IMG/VR virus record: IMGVR_UViG_3300037189_015081
Location: 1-64,000 of that record
Source of the DNA: a virus
DNA length: 64,000 nt
Strand: one strand, 5' to 3'
In this document: piece by piece, positions 1,303 to 34,363 of the stretch
Position numbering within the stretch: position 1 is the first letter of the stretch
Layout: every line of letters begins with the position of its first letter
The notes under the pieces: model-generated
Told to the model about the DNA's origin: nothing
Database searches by the model: none
The model's input: only the letters and a program-made list of their open reading frames with translations
Translations under genes and position numbers: made by a program

Positions 1303-4300
1303 ATGACAGAAAACACTGTACACTCACCGGTATATCGATACTTCACCGTTGATCTTTTATCAGACGAGATTTTGCAAGAAATCCCGTTCCGCGGCGTGTC
1401 GTACCAGCGCGCCATAAAAGGCGCGGGTTCATTTCAGGGAAGCATCCCGGTTATCAGCGACACCGAGGATCTTGATCTCTATGAAAACACCATGCCCGGT
1501 AACACTGCCGTTTTCATTGTACGAGACGGTGAGTGCGTCTGGGGCGGTATCATCTGGTCGCGCTCATACAACATCGTTGAGCGTGTTCTACAGGTAAACG
1601 CGTCAGAGTTCACGAGCTACTTCTATCATCGCCGCATCTGGAAGACCATAAGCAACGCGTATTCTGGAACCCTTGTTGTCAATAATTCTCTCGCTGAAGT
1701 AACATTCGATGACGGGTACTCCACCACCGTCGACACTGGTTCATCCGTTCTTATCAATTTTGATAGCGCACAAAACATAAAATATGACGGCTACTATTCA
1801 GTCGCGTCTCGACCCGTCCCGACAAGTTCAAAGTTTTATTTGCGCGAGGCAAAAAGCGTACAAAACGTTGCCTATGTAACAGTGTCTAACGGGCTTGCCA
1901 CGATTGAAACCGAAACACATCATCATTTCAATGTGGGGGACACGATCACGGTCAACGTGTTGACCTTTCCAGAGTTCAACGGCACATTTGTGATCAAAAA
2001 CGTTGACTCGAGAACAACTAAAACGTTCATGTACGATCTGTCAATCGCTGACAGGGTTAAAACCCCGGCTACAGGTACCGCCTCACGCGCGCTACCCGAA
2101 GGCGTATACCCGAACAGCACGATCACTACGCGCACTGACACCTATGACTATGTGCGCAGTCTTATCAGCGCGGTTGCGGGTGACTTCACTGGTAGCGATT
2201 TTTCATCAAACTACATTGAACCAGGTATTCGCAAGTACGCGCAGATCATCAGCAAGGAAATCAACTCTGGTGTCGCGATCATTGAAACCGATCACGCGCA
2301 TGAGGCGTCCGTGGGTCAGTCTATTCAGATCAGTGATCTCGGGGCAGAGTTTGACGGTGAACACCGGGTTTCAGCTATTTTGTCTGACACAAAGTTTTCG
2401 TATCCTTTACAAGGTTACTACCCGAAAACAACGGTGTCAGCAAAAACCGCTACGATTTCAGCGGTGCGCGCAAGTAACATGGTGGCAACGGTTGTAACCA
2501 GCGCCGCTCATGGTTACGTTGTCGGTAACACTGTGACAATGTCTGTGGAGCAGGATCTGGGTGATTTTGCTGACGCGTTTAACGGAACATTTACGATAAC
2601 AGGTGTACCGTCAACTACGACGTATCAATATGACATCACGGTCTCTGGTTCACTCCCGTGGCTGTACTTTACACGACCCCTGGCAACGTATGGTGGGACC
2701 GGCTATGATATCACTAGCGGAAGTGTCACACCTGAAACGGTTTACGTCACCTTGACGGCTAGGCAGTCCAGCGGATACTTGCGCACGGTATGGGCGTCCG
2801 GGGACCCGAACATTAAATCCGGTGACACGATAACGATCTCTGGTTCAAACTACTCGGATTTTAACGGAACGTTCACCGCGGTCGGAGACTCCTCCAATGG
2901 AATGATTCTGTACGGCGGGGCAACGAGTTTAAACCTTTCATATGGTTCATTCATTCCGTACAGCCCGGTATTGACGGCGCAGAGAACATCCGCGACACTG
3001 TACACTGAAACCTCTATGGGCGCGACGGTTGGTCAAACCGTTGCTGTATCAAATGCGAACGTTCTTCTACCTATCGCGCAAAAATCCTATGACGCGGGAA
3101 CTGGAACAGCCACTATTGTGACCAGTGACGCACACGGGTTGCAGACTGGCGACAACATTGATATTTTTGGTTTGCGCGACACGGCCGCCATTGTTAGTAG
3201 ACAGGTTGACGGAGCGTCATCTACTAAAACTGTTACTCTTTCAACTGATCAAGGTCATAACTTCAGGATTGGTGACCAGGTGACCGTGAGTGACCTGATT
3301 GATCAGTACGACATTAACTATTTTTCTCCTGGTTCTAGCGTAGTGTCAACGTCCGTACCGCCCAGTATTTCAGCGGGTGACATCGTGACAATCAGCGGTC
3401 TCACAGAGTTCTATACAATTCTCCGGGCGCAACTACAGGACGGTCTCGCAACACTAACAGTGTACTCGCACAATGTTCAAGTAAACCAAGAGATAACAGT
3501 GTCCACGCTAAAGGACACTAGCGTCGTGTCAAGCAAGGAAATATACGAGGGTACCGCGACGCTAAACATTGACGGCGCACACAACTTCGTGATCGGCGAC
3601 GTCGTGCGGGTATCAGGTGTTGATTCAACATTTGATGGAGAATACAAACTCACCAATGTAACCGATTACCAGATTCAATATGAACTTGCAACCGAGGACG
3701 CACTTACCGAGGCAAAGGCGGCGTACGCCGCGGCACTTAAGTCCGCTGTTGATCGCAAGGTTAAGAACCCGCAAAGCGACAAGGATGTTATCCGGACACG
3801 CAATGACGTGACTCGTCTATCCGCCGGGTATAGTACCTTGAGCCCTACCGCATCTAGTGGTACAGTGACGTCGTCTACGAGCGTGTTCAACGGGACATTT
3901 CGTGTATCAGCGGTAACACCCACTACGGTAAGCTACGCCGTTAGCGCAAATGACGTCGTGTCACATGCGATAACCGCGGCGTCGTACACTGTCACGTCGG
4001 GTACCGCCGATGCAACAACGTGCACATTGACGATCACTGACGGGTCAACATACAAGGTCACTGACCTGGCCATCGGAGATAAAATCCATGTTGGTGCTGG
4101 TAGTTCCAGGTTTGACGGCACATTTTTAATCACCGGTATTGACACTACGGCAAAAACCGTGACATACAGCAATAAAGGAACGGCCACGGCAGCAACGAGC
4201 GTCTCGGGAGGTTCCTATATTTCATTGCTATACGAGATCGCCGCGGACAGCTCAATAAATGGCCAGTTCCCAGTGACCGCAATTGCGACCGGCCTCACTA

Positions 4301-29464: not shown

Positions 29465-29539
29465 GCCTCGATAGCTCAGTGGTAGAGCAACGCACTTGTA
29501 ATGCGTAGGTCGTCAGTTCAATCCTGACTCGGGGCTCCA
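29465..29539 (+). tRNA. tRNA-Thr(UGU)
   Basis: Acceptor stem GCCTCGA/TCGGGGC, D arm GCTC/GAGC, anticodon arm ACGCA-CTTGTAA-TGCGT, T loop TTCAATC, encoded CCA. Confidence 0.96.
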
Positions 29540-29655: not shown

Positions 29656-29697
29656 CGGCTGGAAGTAGCGCGGTGTAAGCCCGCGGTGAACCAGCCG
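29656..29697 (+). promoter_or_regulatory. Structured 5' leader of the RNR operon (AGUA/GAA internal loop)
   Basis: Follows TATAGT at 29641; CGGCTGG-AAGTAG-CGCGG-TGTAAGC-CCGCG-GTGAA-CCAGCCG. Confidence 0.45.
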
Positions 29698-29733: not shown

Positions 29734-29763
29734 ATGCCTCCCAAGAGAAAAGGAAAGTGCTAA
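29734..29763 (+). CDS. Possible 9-aa upstream ORF MPPKRKGKC
   Basis: GAGGTG RBS; its TAA overlaps the next ATG (TAATG). Confidence 0.3.
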   Translation: MPPKRKGKC

Positions 29764-29843
29764 TGAATGAACAGGACACCGTCGGCGGATACTCAATCCC
29801 GGTAGATCCAATGGATCTCCTCCAGTGTGACAGCTGCCAGTAA
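29763..29843 (+). CDS. 26-aa peptide resembling the redox-active C-terminal tail of RNR alpha subunit
   Basis: MNEQDTVGGYSIPVDPMDLLQCDSCQ*, AAGGA RBS, 71 nt upstream of nrdB. Confidence 0.75.
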   Translation: MNEQDTVGGYSIPVDPMDLLQCDSCQ

Positions 29844-29860
29844 GCACTCCTAAACCAGCG

Positions 29861-29888
29861 AATGCCCCGGCTGAAAAGTCGGGGCATT
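29861..29888 (+). terminator. 12-bp GAAA-tetraloop hairpin between the peptide ORF and nrdB
   Basis: AATGCCCCGGCT-GAAA-AGTCGGGGCATT; no U tract. Confidence 0.5.
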
Positions 29889-29914
29889 GCCAACTAAAAA
29901 GAAGGAAAACAAAA

Positions 29915-30895
29915 ATGGGAATTCTCGGAACAGGTATTCAGGAAGGACTGCTCCTCAAGCCAGTCAAGTATCAGTGGGCAATGGACCTCTATGACCAGGC
30001 TGTGGCAAACACCTGGTTCCCCAACGAAATCCAGCTCGGTGAAGACATCGCCGACTTCAAGAAGATGACCGAGGAGGAGCAGCACGCGATCACCTTCCTC
30101 ATGAGCTTCTTCAACCCGTCGGAGTTGATCGTCAACAAGGCTCTGGCCTTCGGCGTGTACCCGTACCTTAACGCTCCCGAGGCGCACCTGTACCTGGCCA
30201 AGCAGATGTGGGAAGAAGCAAACCACTGCATGTCGTTCGAGTACGTTCTCGAGACCTTCCCCGTCGATCGGGACAAAATCTACAACCAGCACGTCTCCGT
30301 CCCCTCGATTAAGGCTAAGGAAGACTTCGAGGTCAAGTTCATCAAGCGCATGACCGAAGACACCATTGACATCAGCACCGTAGAGGGCAAGCAGGACTTT
30401 GTTCGCAACCTCGTGGCTTACTCGGTCATCATGGAGGGCATCTGGTTCTACTCGGGCTTCATGGTGGCCCTGAGCTTCCGTCAGCGCAACCTGCTGCGCA
30501 ACTTTGGTTCCTTGGTTGACTGGATTGTTCGCGACGAGTCGCTGCACCTCAAGTTCGGAATCAACCTCGTCGTGACCGTTCTCGAGGAAAACCCGGAGAT
30601 CGTCACCGAGGAATTTGCTGCCGAGATCAAGCAGATGATCCTCGACGCTGTCGAGATGGAAGTCGCGTACAACAACGACCAGTTCCCGAGTGGCATTCTC
30701 GGTCTCAACGCCGACTACGTGGGTCAGTACACCAAGTACCTGGCTGACCGTCGTCTCGAGGAGCTCGGCTTCGAGCCCGAGTACAAGGTGTCGAACCCCG
30801 CTAAGTGGATGGCTACCGCCAACGACACCCTGCAGCTGGTCAACTTCTTCGAAGCGACCAACACCAGCTACGAGTCGAACGCATCGGCGAAATAA
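29915..30895 (+). CDS. nrdB: Ribonucleotide reductase beta subunit, class Ic signature
   Basis: W.P.EI...D, FFNPSE, EEANHCMSF, EGIWFYSGF, RDESLH, NFFE.....Y. Confidence 0.93.
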   Translation: MGILGTGIQEGLLLKPVKYQWAMDLYDQAVANTWFPNEIQLGEDIADFKKMTEEEQHAITFLMSFFNPSELIVNKALAFGVYPYLNAPEAHLYLAKQMWEEANHCMSFEYVLETFPVDRDKIYNQHVSVPSIKAKEDFEVKFIKRMTEDTIDISTVEGKQDFVRNLVAYSVIMEGIWFYSGFMVALSFRQRNLLRNFGSLVDWIVRDESLHLKFGINLVVTVLEENPEIVTEEFAAEIKQMILDAVEMEVAYNNDQFPSGILGLNADYVGQYTKYLADRRLEELGFEPEYKVSNPAKWMATANDTLQLVNFFEATNTSYESNASAK

Positions 30896-33867: not shown

Positions 33868-34050
33868 GTGGCGTACCATAGCGAGGACAGAACCACTGTT
33901 CTTCGTGAGCTACTTGCCTTGGTCCAGGAAAAGGACTCGCAGGGCGACATCATAGCGGCCGAGGTTCTTATCTGGGCTTTCCGGCGGCTAGTCGGAGATC
34001 CAACAGACCCTAATAAGTACCCTGAAACGAAAGACAACTATGGCAACTAA
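33868..34050 (+). CDS. Hypothetical protein
   Basis: Fills the gap between the micropeptide and thioredoxin. Confidence 0.5.
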   Translation: MAYHSEDRTTVLRELLALVQEKDSQGDIIAAEVLIWAFRRLVGDPTDPNKYPETKDNYGN

Positions 34051-34363
34051 AATAGCCAGCACCGAGACATTTGACGATCTAGTACTGCGCGCCGACAAGC
34101 CCGTTCTCGTTGACTTCTGGGCAGAGTGGTGCGGTCCGTGCCGCGCACTAGCTCCAATTCTTGATCAAATCGCTGAAGAGCACGGTGACAAGATCAAAAT
34201 TGTAAAAGTAAACGTTGACGACAACCCGGAACTTGGCTCGCGATACCGGGTAACGTCCTTGCCGATGATGAAGGTCATTGTCCAGGGTGAAGTCGCTAAA
34301 ACAATTCCAGGGGTCAAACCCAAACACGTGCTAGAATTTGAACTAGCAGATTTCATCCAATAG
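34040..34363 (+). CDS. trxA: Thioredoxin
   Basis: VLVDFWAEWCGPC, VKVNVD. Confidence 0.95.
   Translation: MATKIASTETFDDLVLRADKPVLVDFWAEWCGPCRALAPILDQIAEEHGDKIKIVKVNVDDNPELGSRYRVTSLPMMKVIVQGEVAKTIPGVKPKHVLEFELADFIQ

What the first reader, a model, noticed from the sequence alone, without database searches (positions are those of the whole stretch)
29763..30895. Split ribonucleotide reductase: free-standing 26-aa peptide mimicking the redox tail of the alpha subunit
Seen: an ORF below the gene-caller cutoff with its own RBS, MNEQDTVGGYSIPVDPMDLLQCDSCQ*, lies immediately upstream of nrdB. Its frame has a stop at 29676, so it is not the end of a long gene. No nrdA is in the window, and a WCGPC thioredoxin lies about 4 kb downstream. 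Established: class I RNR alpha subunits are re-reduced by a cysteine pair on a flexible C-terminal tail (E. coli C754/C759, CxxC in many others) that shuttles electrons from thioredoxin or glutaredoxin. From memory, some actinobacterial alpha subunits end in DPM...QCESCQ, which needs checking. Inference: the tail has been detached into a diffusible micro-redoxin. It could serve a tail-less phage alpha encoded elsewhere, or boost or hijack the host alpha.
Basis: partly seen in the sequence, partly recalled or inferred. Interest (0 to 1): 0.88.

Follow-up and report, generated by a model that had tools for sequence, protein, structure and literature searches.

The report
Detached ribonucleotide reductase redox-tail micro-gene
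This phage carries a real 26-codon gene for the cysteine tail that normally ends the large subunit of ribonucleotide reductase (the enzyme that makes DNA building blocks); its Microbacteriaceae hosts also encode that tail as separate tiny genes, so it probably recharges the host enzyme.

Summary
The 26-codon ORF at 29763-29843 is real, under strong purifying selection, and belongs to a large family of free-standing 21-35-residue peptides ending ...DP.D...C..CQ-stop. A profile of these peptides matches the extreme C-terminus of fused NrdA relatives. So it is the class I alpha redox tail encoded on its own.

It is not a phage invention. In a 151-genome sample of the host family, all 71 genomes with the phage-like class Ic NrdB carry the peptide gene. 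In 67 of those 71 it lies directly upstream of nrdB. All 20 host NrdA C-termini read are Cys-free. Most genomes hold a second, stand-alone copy behind NrdR-box-like pairs that resemble the nrdA promoter.

The 116.7-kb phage record has the tail gene, nrdB and a thioredoxin, but no nrdA. Four complete GenBank phages carry the tail gene alone.

Best reading (about 0.7): a trans-acting dithiol shuttle between thioredoxin and the tail-less host alpha. The phage supplies it without the NrdR-like boxes. Function is inferred, not shown.

I found no paper describing a split class I tail; split class II NrdJa/NrdJb is the nearest precedent. This scan has reported the same family before on other DNA.

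The parts
29763..29843 (+). 26-codon gene (plus stop) for the free-standing RNR alpha redox-tail peptide. Cys22 and Cys25 form the CxxC; Gln26 is the last residue.
   Evidence: ORF. Family alignments A1 and A2 have invariant D15 P16 C22 C25 Q26. Profile match to fused NrdA C-termini. Third-codon-position variation.
29750..29757 (+). Shine-Dalgarno-like AAGGAAAG, 5 nt before the ATG.
   Evidence: Read directly. GGAGG- or AAGGAG-like motifs precede most homologues.
29734..29763 (+). 9-codon Lys/Arg-rich upstream ORF. Its TAA overlaps the peptide gene's ATG (TAATG). Status unknown.
   Evidence: Read. Another first-reader note, e1-6162717, mentions it. Not tested here.
29861..29888 (+). Strong GC hairpin between the peptide gene and nrdB, with no U-tract after it. 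Possible partial terminator or RNA stabiliser.
   Evidence: Fold of 29844-29914: -25 kcal/mol, z -4.29, 0 of 200 shuffles fold as well. The consensus terminator scan did not call it.
29915..30895 (+). nrdB, the radical-generating subunit, of class Ic type. It is 79-86% identical to the full-length NrdB matches of sampled host-family (Microbacteriaceae) genomes.
   Evidence: PF00268 E 2.5e-76. Best solved relatives are 1syy, 4d8f and 2ani, with Phe and Glu in the aligned radical-site and ligand columns. Identity to host NrdB. The C-terminal alpha-binding region is nearly identical to host NrdB.
34040..34363 (+). Phage thioredoxin (WCGPC), the likely reductant of the peptide.
   Evidence: PF00085 E 1.9e-28. 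Thioredoxin matches lie near nrdB in 6 of the 33 related phage nrdB loci.
29465..29539 (+). tRNA-Thr (TGT) upstream. Context only.

Best explanation
The ORF encodes a free 26-residue version of the flexible C-terminal tail of a class I (class Ic-type) ribonucleotide reductase alpha subunit.

In the hosts (Microbacteriaceae) the alpha subunit ends in a Cys-free Gly/Phe-rich stretch. The tail is made as a separate peptide from a gene between nrdA and nrdB, and usually also from a second, stand-alone gene.

Proposed mechanism (inferred):
1. Thioredoxin reduces the peptide's CxxC.
2. The peptide enters the alpha active site and reduces the disulfide left after each turnover.
3. It leaves oxidised and is recharged.

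The phage has no alpha subunit. It brings nrdB, the tail peptide and a thioredoxin. During infection it therefore most likely raises the output of the host's own tail-less alpha, from genes that lack the host's NrdR-like operator boxes.
For: SHOWN

1. Homology to alpha tails.
- The A2 profile hits the very end of fused NrdA relatives at E 6.8e-11 to 6e-06. 58 of 63 hits end at the last or next-to-last residue. The reversed control reaches at most 4.6 bits.
- 128 of the 150 best NrdA relatives end in C..C, and 95 in C..CQ.

2. Host alpha is tail-less.
- 20 of 20 host NrdA C-termini read have no Cys. So do 3 of 3 phage NrdA.
- The active-site Cys pair, the radical Cys and Glu, and the Tyr-Tyr dyad are kept. 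These are invariant in A4 as C227, C441, E443, C456, Y757, Y758.

3. Operon position. In 4 of 4 host genomes the order is nrdA, micro-ORF, nrdB. The ATG overlaps the nrdA stop or follows it by 2 nt, and a GAAGG- or GGGAGG-like motif lies upstream.

4. Co-occurrence. In a 151-genome family sample, 71 have the phage-like NrdB. All 71 are among the 73 with the peptide. By my reading of those tables, the peptide gene lies directly upstream of nrdB in 67 of 71.

5. Only one reductase. G001-G004 each have a single PF02867 match. The tail-less enzyme is therefore their only class I or II reductase found.

6. Shared control elements.
- nrdA promoters carry paired 16-bp boxes with the six key NrdR-box positions in 4 of 4.
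- In 77 of 79 stand-alone host loci, the best match in the roughly 8-kb locus to those boxes lies 0-150 nt before the peptide ATG. Scores are 21-27 of 32, against 17-20 in 40 shuffles.
- NrdR (TIGR00244) is present in 4 of 4 hosts.

7. Phage linkage. 18 of 33 related phage nrdB loci hold a tail gene in the fetched locus. It abuts nrdB in 7, and lies 1.0-1.1 kb or less upstream of nrdA in 3 of 3 loci that have nrdA.

8. Compatibility. The phage NrdB C-terminus matches the host NrdB C-terminus.

WEAK

Co-folding host NrdA with the 38-residue window ORF gave 'weak support'.
- Score 0.48 (runs 0.03, 0.49, 0.48); best of 3 controls 0.00.
- The mark was reached by 58 of 80 solved complexes and 2 of 110 mismatched pairs.
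- At 0.60 or under it was reached by only 7 of those 80, and by both mismatches that passed.
- The runs agree in at least 61% of contacts. Partner pLDDT is at least 47.
- My own alignments were used, so these counts hold only roughly.

ESTABLISHED KNOWLEDGE

The alpha tail Cys pair re-reduces the active site and is itself reduced by thioredoxin (passages in PMC11903788; PMC9669993).
Against: - No experiment shows that the peptide is made, binds alpha, or carries electrons.
- The phage peptide is of the stand-alone host type (88% identical to L093's peptide) rather than the operon type (58-69%). The role of that paralogue next to an operon copy is unexplained.
- Most phage copies sit with no reductase gene nearby: 83 of 84 loci have no nrdB within about 4 kb. 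Four complete phages have neither alpha nor beta. The phage benefit therefore need not be simple co-supply with NrdB.
- The box pairs before stand-alone host genes mostly have a 17-bp linker (start-to-start 33 in 35 of the 37 strict sites). The published spacing is 15-16 bp, and spacing is reported as critical (PMC13584703).
- The co-fold pass is weak, and one of three runs scored 0.03.
Confidence: 0.7

Rival explanations
1. Decoy or modulator. The free tail competes with host tail peptides, or drains or redirects thioredoxin. That would throttle or re-tune host reductase or redox balance rather than boost it. This is comparable to what I recall of yeast Sml1 acting at the tail-binding step.
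For: Four complete phages carry the tail gene with no RNR subunit at all. Phage copies lack the host's box pairs: 0 of 63 viral loci, and none in the window. Hosts already have one to five copies.
Against: The Cys pair and the whole C-terminal 12 residues are kept identical to the functional host form. A decoy would be expected to diverge or lose a Cys. This phage also brings nrdB and thioredoxin, which fits boosting.
Confidence: 0.1
2. Cofactor-assembly helper. The acidic CxxC peptide delivers or holds metal for the Mn/Fe site of the class Ic beta subunit.
For: It lies directly upstream of nrdB here and in 67 of 71 host genomes. Some GenBank records name the micro-ORF 'ribonucleotide-diphosphate reductase subunit beta'.
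Against: Its homologues are the ends of alpha subunits, not of beta or of any metallochaperone. No Pfam or NCBIfam family matches it apart from a zinc-finger hit far below cut-off. Tail-less alpha co-occurs with it.
Confidence: 0.05
3. Cis-acting leader peptide. Translation of the micro-ORF, together with the following hairpin, tunes nrdB expression, and the peptide itself is irrelevant.
For: A 9-codon upstream ORF is coupled to it, and a -25 kcal/mol hairpin follows it before nrdB.
Against: The same peptide is conserved in unrelated contexts: after holin genes, and with its own promoter-like boxes and terminator in hosts. Variation is synonymous. It matches alpha tails.
Confidence: 0.03
4. 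Relic of a deleted nrdA 3' end, or a piece joined to alpha by frameshifting or read-through.
For: In hosts the micro-ORF overlaps or abuts the nrdA stop. In one genome (G049) it is in frame behind a single stop.
Against: The phage record has no nrdA. The ORF has its own start and ribosome site. Host copies keep an ATG or GTG at the junction. Stand-alone copies have their own promoter-like elements and, in the locus read (L093), a terminator.
Confidence: 0.02

Closest known systems
Covalent C-terminal Cys-pair tail of class I RNR alpha subunits (CxxC in most). E. coli C754/C759 and yeast CX2C acting across the dimer are recalled, not checked here.
   Same: Same sequence family: the profile match ends at the last residue of fused NrdA relatives. 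Same ...C..CQ end as 95 of the 150 nearest NrdA representatives. The presumed job is the same: re-reducing the active site with electrons from thioredoxin (passages).
   Different: It is not attached to alpha. It is a separate 26-residue gene product with its own start, and in hosts often its own promoter-like boxes and terminator. Here it sits in a phage that has no alpha.
Split class II RNR NrdJa/NrdJb of Pseudomonas aeruginosa and close relatives
   Same: A reductase whose dithiol-exchange C-terminal part is a separate polypeptide. NrdJb 'mediates efficient reductive dithiol exchange', and both parts are required (abstract of PMC4520616).
   Different: That system is class II and B12-dependent. 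[quoted passage not shown] Here the enzyme is class I (class Ic-type beta) and the separate part is a 21-35-residue peptide with two Cys. It is multi-copy in hosts and carried by phages.
Class Ic RNR (Chlamydia trachomatis R2c; PDB 1syy, 4d8f, 2ani)
   Same: The adjacent nrdB is closest to these chains (E about 1e-76). It shares Glu and Phe in the aligned ligand and radical-site columns.
   Different: This concerns the neighbouring gene, not the peptide. Whether the chlamydial alpha has a fused tail was not examined.
Thioredoxin, glutaredoxin and NrdH redoxins
   Same: A CxxC dithiol that would shuttle reducing equivalents to RNR.
   Different: The peptide has no redoxin fold or domain: 26 residues and no Pfam or NCBIfam redoxin match. 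It would act downstream of thioredoxin.

Membership tests
Class I RNR alpha C-terminal redox tail | Cys pair (CxxC) within the last few residues | tested here: met
   C22-D-S-C25-Q-stop. C22, C25 and Q26 are invariant in the 30-sequence alignment A2.
Class I RNR alpha C-terminal redox tail | Sequence homology to tails of bona fide NrdA proteins | tested here: met
   The A2 profile matches the last residues of P0097, P0003, P0004 and P0098 (E 6.8e-11 to 6e-06). 58 of 63 hits end at the C-terminal end; the reversed control gives none.
Class I RNR alpha C-terminal redox tail | Covalently part of the alpha polypeptide | tested here: not met
   In-frame stop at 29676-29678 and its own ATG. No PF02867 match in the whole record. 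Host copies are separate ORFs in 20 of 20 junctions or promoters read.
Class I RNR alpha C-terminal redox tail | Reduces the active-site disulfide and is re-reduced by thioredoxin or glutaredoxin | not testable with these tools
   Only indirect support: tail-less alpha with an intact active-site Cys pair, a phage thioredoxin, and a weak co-fold pass at 0.48 against a control of 0.00.
Split RNR NrdJa/NrdJb | Class II (B12-dependent) catalytic subunit as partner | tested here: not met
   The partner operon has a class I beta subunit (PF00268). Host NrdA is closest to class I alpha chains 5im3 and 3hnc.
Split RNR NrdJa/NrdJb | The separate part is a folded, Cys-rich zinc-finger protein | tested here: not met
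   26 residues with two Cys. [quoted passage not shown]
Class Ic R2c (for the adjacent nrdB) | Phe in place of the radical Tyr, and Glu in place of the first Asp ligand | tested here: met
   In the alignment to 1syy, the query's ...HCMSF... and ...NPSE... align with the chain's ...HTHTF... and ...STAE.... That these columns are F127 and E89 of the chlamydial protein is recalled, not checked.
Cis-acting leader or attenuator peptide | Found only upstream of the gene it regulates, with sequence free to vary outside the arrest motif | tested here: not met
   Found after holin genes, before nrdA, after nrdB, and as a stand-alone unit that in the locus read (L093) has its own terminator.

The most novel reading that the evidence does not exclude
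The tail of a class I ribonucleotide reductase has become a diffusible, multi-copy 'micro-redoxin'. It would be an essential but almost unannotated gene in a whole bacterial family. Re-reduction by this peptide would be a control point that phages exploit: they carry unrepressed copies (no NrdR-like boxes), often as their only reductase-related gene, to speed up the host's alpha subunit or release it from dATP/NrdR control.
Probability: 0.4. Interest if true: 0.85.

Novelty: new variant of a known kind. Interest (0 to 1): 0.78.

Why it matters
Class I reductases are described as carrying the double-cysteine tail 'almost exclusively' on alpha (PMC9669993 passage). Here a whole bacterial family and its phages make that tail as a 21-35-residue peptide.

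If it works in trans, three things follow:
- It adds a new, easily synthesised component to reductase biochemistry, and makes the poorly seen re-reduction half-cycle directly testable with a free peptide.
- It identifies a probably essential micro-gene that gene callers mostly miss or mislabel.
- It shows a new kind of phage auxiliary gene: supplying a fragment of a host enzyme.

It also warns that 'tail-less' alpha sequences in surveys may have their tail next door.

Tried and rejected
SEARCHES THAT GAVE LITTLE

- DNA similarity to known phages found only the tRNA.
- Rfam found only the tRNA.
- NCBIfam gave nothing for the peptide. Pfam gave only a zinc-finger hit far below cut-off.
- The word-indexed protein search with the 54-residue stop-to-stop frame, 'longer' setting, found nothing. 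That is weak evidence. The fused tails later turned up through NrdA itself.

IDEAS CONSIDERED AND DROPPED

- A RiPP or cofactor precursor, a ribosomal L33 remnant (the host stand-alone copy often lies upstream of MaoC-like dehydratase and murB-like ORFs, as I recognised them from the translations), and a ribosome-arrest peptide. I dropped all three once the nrdA-micro-nrdB operon and the fused tails were seen.
- I first read open frames of 800-964 aa around some host matches as fused NrdA within the family. Both cases I checked (G135, G066) are split; an alternative frame merely stays open. Seven further such cases (G044, G147, G059, G024, G126, G084, G055) were not read. I therefore claim no fusion inside the sampled family.

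UNINFORMATIVE RUNS

- Sequencing runs: one DNA run holds the stretch (share 0.88). All others, including two RNA libraries, hold 0.12 or less.
- When laid at 85% likeness, the RNA contigs cover mainly relatives' nrdB and the tRNA. Depth over 29778-29885 is low in one run. These are contigs of relatives in RNA libraries. They show neither transcription of this phage nor translation.
- The consensus scan called no terminator at the hairpin and no convincing promoter.
- No NrdR-like box pair lies upstream of the phage gene.

LITERATURE

- Six searches found no description of a split class I tail.
- What I saw of each paper:
  - Passages: PMC9669993, bioRxiv 10.1101/2022.04.23.489257, PMC13584703, PMC11903788.
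  - Abstract and outline: PMC4520616.
  - Search listings only: all other papers.
- Supplementary files were not opened. The supplements of the RNR phylogeny papers may tabulate class I C-termini without cysteines and could bear on the novelty claim.
- Not searched: subscription journals outside the library.
Full report
THE OBSERVATION

- The ORF stands as described. ATG 29763 to TAA 29841-29843 encodes MNEQDTVGGYSIPVDPMDLLQCDSCQ.
- An in-frame TAA at 29676-29678 closes the frame upstream.
- AAGGAAAG lies 5 nt before the ATG.
- nrdB follows at 29915-30895 (PF00268, E 2.5e-76). A WCGPC thioredoxin lies at 34040-34363 (PF00085, E 1.9e-28).
- A tRNA-Thr lies at 29465-29539.
- The window is the first 64 kb of a 116,681-bp virus record with direct terminal repeats. 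That record has no PF02867 (RNR large subunit) match and only this one copy of the peptide gene.

A LARGE FAMILY OF FREE-STANDING PEPTIDES

- tblastn of the peptide found unannotated or mis-framed homologues in four phages (six records, two phages filed twice):
  - Pontimonas phage phiPsal1 and Clavibacter phage CMP1, just after the holin gene;
  - Clavibacter phage CN1A, after a metallophosphatase;
  - Pseudanabaena phage Pan2.
  None is near a reductase gene.
- A pattern scan found 247 relatives among 254 matched stretches in viral contigs. It found 407 among 413 in the one-genome-per-species bacterial collection; the 80 best are almost all Microbacteriaceae by record title.
- In all 84 viral or phage loci and all 80 bacterial loci read, the frame ends exactly in ...CQ-stop.
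- The N-terminal third varies. The last 12-15 residues barely change.
- Over the last 16 codons, mean entropy at codon positions 1/2/3 is 0.34/0.17/1.25 bits (viral, 60 distinct DNA versions, 15 peptide versions). For bacterial loci it is 0.07/0.04/0.69 (50 DNA versions, 4 peptide versions). Selection acts on the peptide, not on an RNA.

IT IS THE ALPHA TAIL

- I searched a host NrdA against 1.84 billion representatives. Of the 150 best, 128 end in C..C within two residues of the end, and 95 end in C..CQ.
- The closest full-length relatives carry fused tails that align with the peptide:
  - P0003 (58% identical) ends ...VCPIDPAERAQCDSCQ;
  - P0004 (53% identical) ends ...ACPTDPAERALCESCQ;
  - the fragment P0097 (70% identical) ends ...DVVDGSACPIDPQERLQCESCQ.
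- A profile built from 30 micro-ORFs (A2) hits exactly these ends at E 6.8e-11 to 6e-06. 58 of its 63 hits end at the last or next-to-last residue. Reversed sequences give at most 4.6 bits and no terminal hit.
- P0097 keeps the RRGFG motif that ends the tail-less proteins and then runs on into the tail. That shows where the split lies.

THE HOSTS ARE SPLIT TOO

- In four host genomes the single PF02867 match is an NrdA of about 800 residues. It ends in a Cys-free Gly/Phe-rich stretch (...KGFGFG...).
- It is followed at once by a paralogous micro-ORF (for example ...EDYFVPVDPMDDLQCDSCQ) and then by nrdB. The ATG overlaps the nrdA stop or lies 2 nt behind it.
- GAAGG- or GGGAGG-like motifs precede these starts.
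- The active-site Cys pair, the radical Cys and Glu, and the Tyr-Tyr dyad are intact. The enzyme should therefore still need re-reduction.
- In a sample of 151 genomes of the family:
  - 73 have a peptide match, one of them only weakly;
  - 71 have an NrdB whose full-length matches are 79-86% identical to the phage's;
  - all 71 NrdB-positive genomes are among the 73;
  - 66 of the 73 have two to five peptide matches.
- By my reading of the two tables, the peptide gene lies within 250 nt upstream of nrdB in 60 genomes. Reading the DNA of 16 more junctions added 7, giving 67 of 71.
- Three genomes (G079, G078, G017) have nothing between nrdA and nrdB, and only a stand-alone copy elsewhere. One (G120) is cut by a contig end.
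- All 20 host NrdA ends read are Cys-free.
- Large 'open frames' around some matches are not fusions.
- Variants exist:
  - GTG starts;
  - one copy extended 11 residues past CQ (G033);
  - one in frame behind a single stop (G049);
  - one with a long N-terminal extension (G065).

THE STAND-ALONE HOST COPY LOOKS CO-REGULATED WITH nrdA

- In L093 the stand-alone copy has its own ribosome site and a hairpin-plus-T terminator.
- nrdA promoters carry two 16-bp boxes 16 bp apart, with at least 11 of the 12 key NrdR-box positions, in 4 of 4. The key positions are C4, A6, A8, T9, T11 and G13, as given in PMC13584703.
- I scanned each stand-alone locus of about 8 kb on both strands with the nrdA boxes of L167. 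In 77 of 79 loci the best site lies 0-150 nt before the peptide ATG. Scores are 21-27 of 32, against 17-20 in 40 shuffled loci.
- 37 of 76 loci pass the strict key-position test. Elsewhere there are 41 hits in 1.14 Mb.
- Most have a 17-bp linker, one more than the published 15-16 bp, so NrdR binding is untested.
- NrdR itself is present in 4 of 4 hosts.
- None of 63 viral loci, and nothing in the window, has such a pair.

PHAGE CONTEXTS

- Of 33 viral loci with an NrdB at least 65% identical to this one, 18 hold a tail gene in the fetched locus:
  - abutting nrdB, as here, in 7;
  - about 1 kb upstream in 4;
  - downstream in 4;
  - 1.0-1.1 kb or less upstream of nrdA in the 3 loci that have nrdA, whose NrdA is also Cys-free.
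- Four more contigs hold the tail gene elsewhere on the contig, judged by matching contig names.
- Conversely, among the 84 loci found with the peptide, only one has nrdB within about 4 kb, and none has nrdA.
- Four complete GenBank phages with the tail gene have neither subunit.
- The window's peptide is 88% identical to the stand-alone host type and 58-69% to the operon type.

THE NEIGHBOURING GENES FIT

- The phage NrdB is closest to Chlamydia class Ic R2 structures. It shares Phe and Glu in the aligned radical-site and ligand columns.
- Its C-terminal stretch, where beta binds alpha, is nearly the same as in host NrdB.
- Host NrdA is closest to class I alpha structures.

MECHANISM

- Shown: homology to alpha tails, tail-less alpha, gene order, co-occurrence, and shared promoter elements.
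- Inferred: thioredoxin (phage or host) reduces the peptide. The peptide reduces the alpha active-site disulfide and cycles.
- A co-fold of host NrdA with the 38-residue window ORF gave 'weak support':
  - score 0.48 (runs 0.03, 0.49, 0.48), best control 0.00;
  - the mark was reached by 58 of 80 solved complexes and 2 of 110 mismatched pairs;
  - at 0.60 or under it was reached by only 7 of those 80, and by both mismatches that passed;
  - the runs agree in at least 61% of contacts, and partner pLDDT is at least 47;
  - my own alignments were used, and no contacts were given.
- With no alpha of its own, the phage most likely feeds the host alpha with extra beta, extra tail and extra thioredoxin, from genes without the NrdR-like boxes.

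WHAT IS KNOWN

- The tail's role is textbook (passages in PMC11903788).
- The only split reductase I found described is class II NrdJa/NrdJb. There NrdJb is a folded domain that mediates dithiol exchange (abstract of PMC4520616; passage).
- Six literature searches gave no split class I tail.
- Some GenBank records do list the micro-ORFs, named 'ribonucleotide-diphosphate reductase subunit beta' or 'hypothetical protein'.
- Earlier agents of this scan reported the same family on other DNA. Their notes agree with what I found independently, and I did not use them as evidence.

VERDICT

This is a new variant of a known kind. The function awaits a simple reconstitution assay.

Noticed in passing
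window 29734-29763: A 9-codon Lys/Arg-rich ORF (MPPKRKGKC) whose TAA overlaps the ATG of the tail gene (TAATG). Whether it is translated or conserved was not examined. Another first-reader note covers this leader.
   Followed up: no
window 29861-29888: Strong hairpin between the tail gene and nrdB (-25 kcal/mol, z -4.29) without a U-tract. The host stand-alone gene in L093 has a hairpin followed by a T-run instead.
   Followed up: partly
L196 1626-4916: The phage nrdA match is broken into two pieces (query residues 6-444 and 440-783), about 920 bp apart. This suggests an intein, intron or homing-endonuclease insertion.
   Followed up: no
L003 3001-3088 (Pseudanabaena phage Pan2): GenBank annotates a 27-residue hypothetical protein (Pan2_27) in a different frame from the conserved tail ORF (3001-3081). 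A cyanophage with this peptide hints that the split extends beyond actinobacteria.
   Followed up: no
proteins P0153, P0160 (host micro-ORFs): Some GenBank records name the 26-27-residue micro-ORFs 'ribonucleotide-diphosphate reductase subunit beta'. This is a mislabel: they are alpha-tail homologues.
   Followed up: partly
L165-L168, L189, L196, L198, L208-L223 (NrdA C-termini): A basic-Gly-Phe-Gly motif ((R/K)(R/K)GFG(F/G)), often present twice, ends the tail-less NrdA proteins. It is also present before the tail in the fused relative P0097. Its role is unknown; it may be a docking site.
   Followed up: no
L085-L098 (about 50-120 nt upstream of the stand-alone host genes): In the 12 sites printed, the linker between the two NrdR-like boxes holds its own inverted repeat (AATGACA...TGTCATT, imperfect in one). 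It is not seen in the four nrdA promoters read. It may be the -35 region or a second operator.
   Followed up: no
L192, L193 6124-6264: A longer 46-residue ORF downstream of a more distant phage nrdB (66% identity) ends ...DPSTDFVCDSCQ. It may be a diverged or extended tail protein.
   Followed up: no
proteins P0032, P0052, P0056, P0071, P0091, P0137: Six other NrdA representatives keep the Tyr-Tyr motif but have short Cys-free ends. They may be further, independent cases of detached tails.
   Followed up: no
L122 (Leifsonia chromosome): One bacterial copy lies in a different context, near a tRNA-Arg and an ORF that looked integrase-like to me by eye (no family search was run). It lacks the box pair. 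It may be a prophage-borne copy.
   Followed up: no
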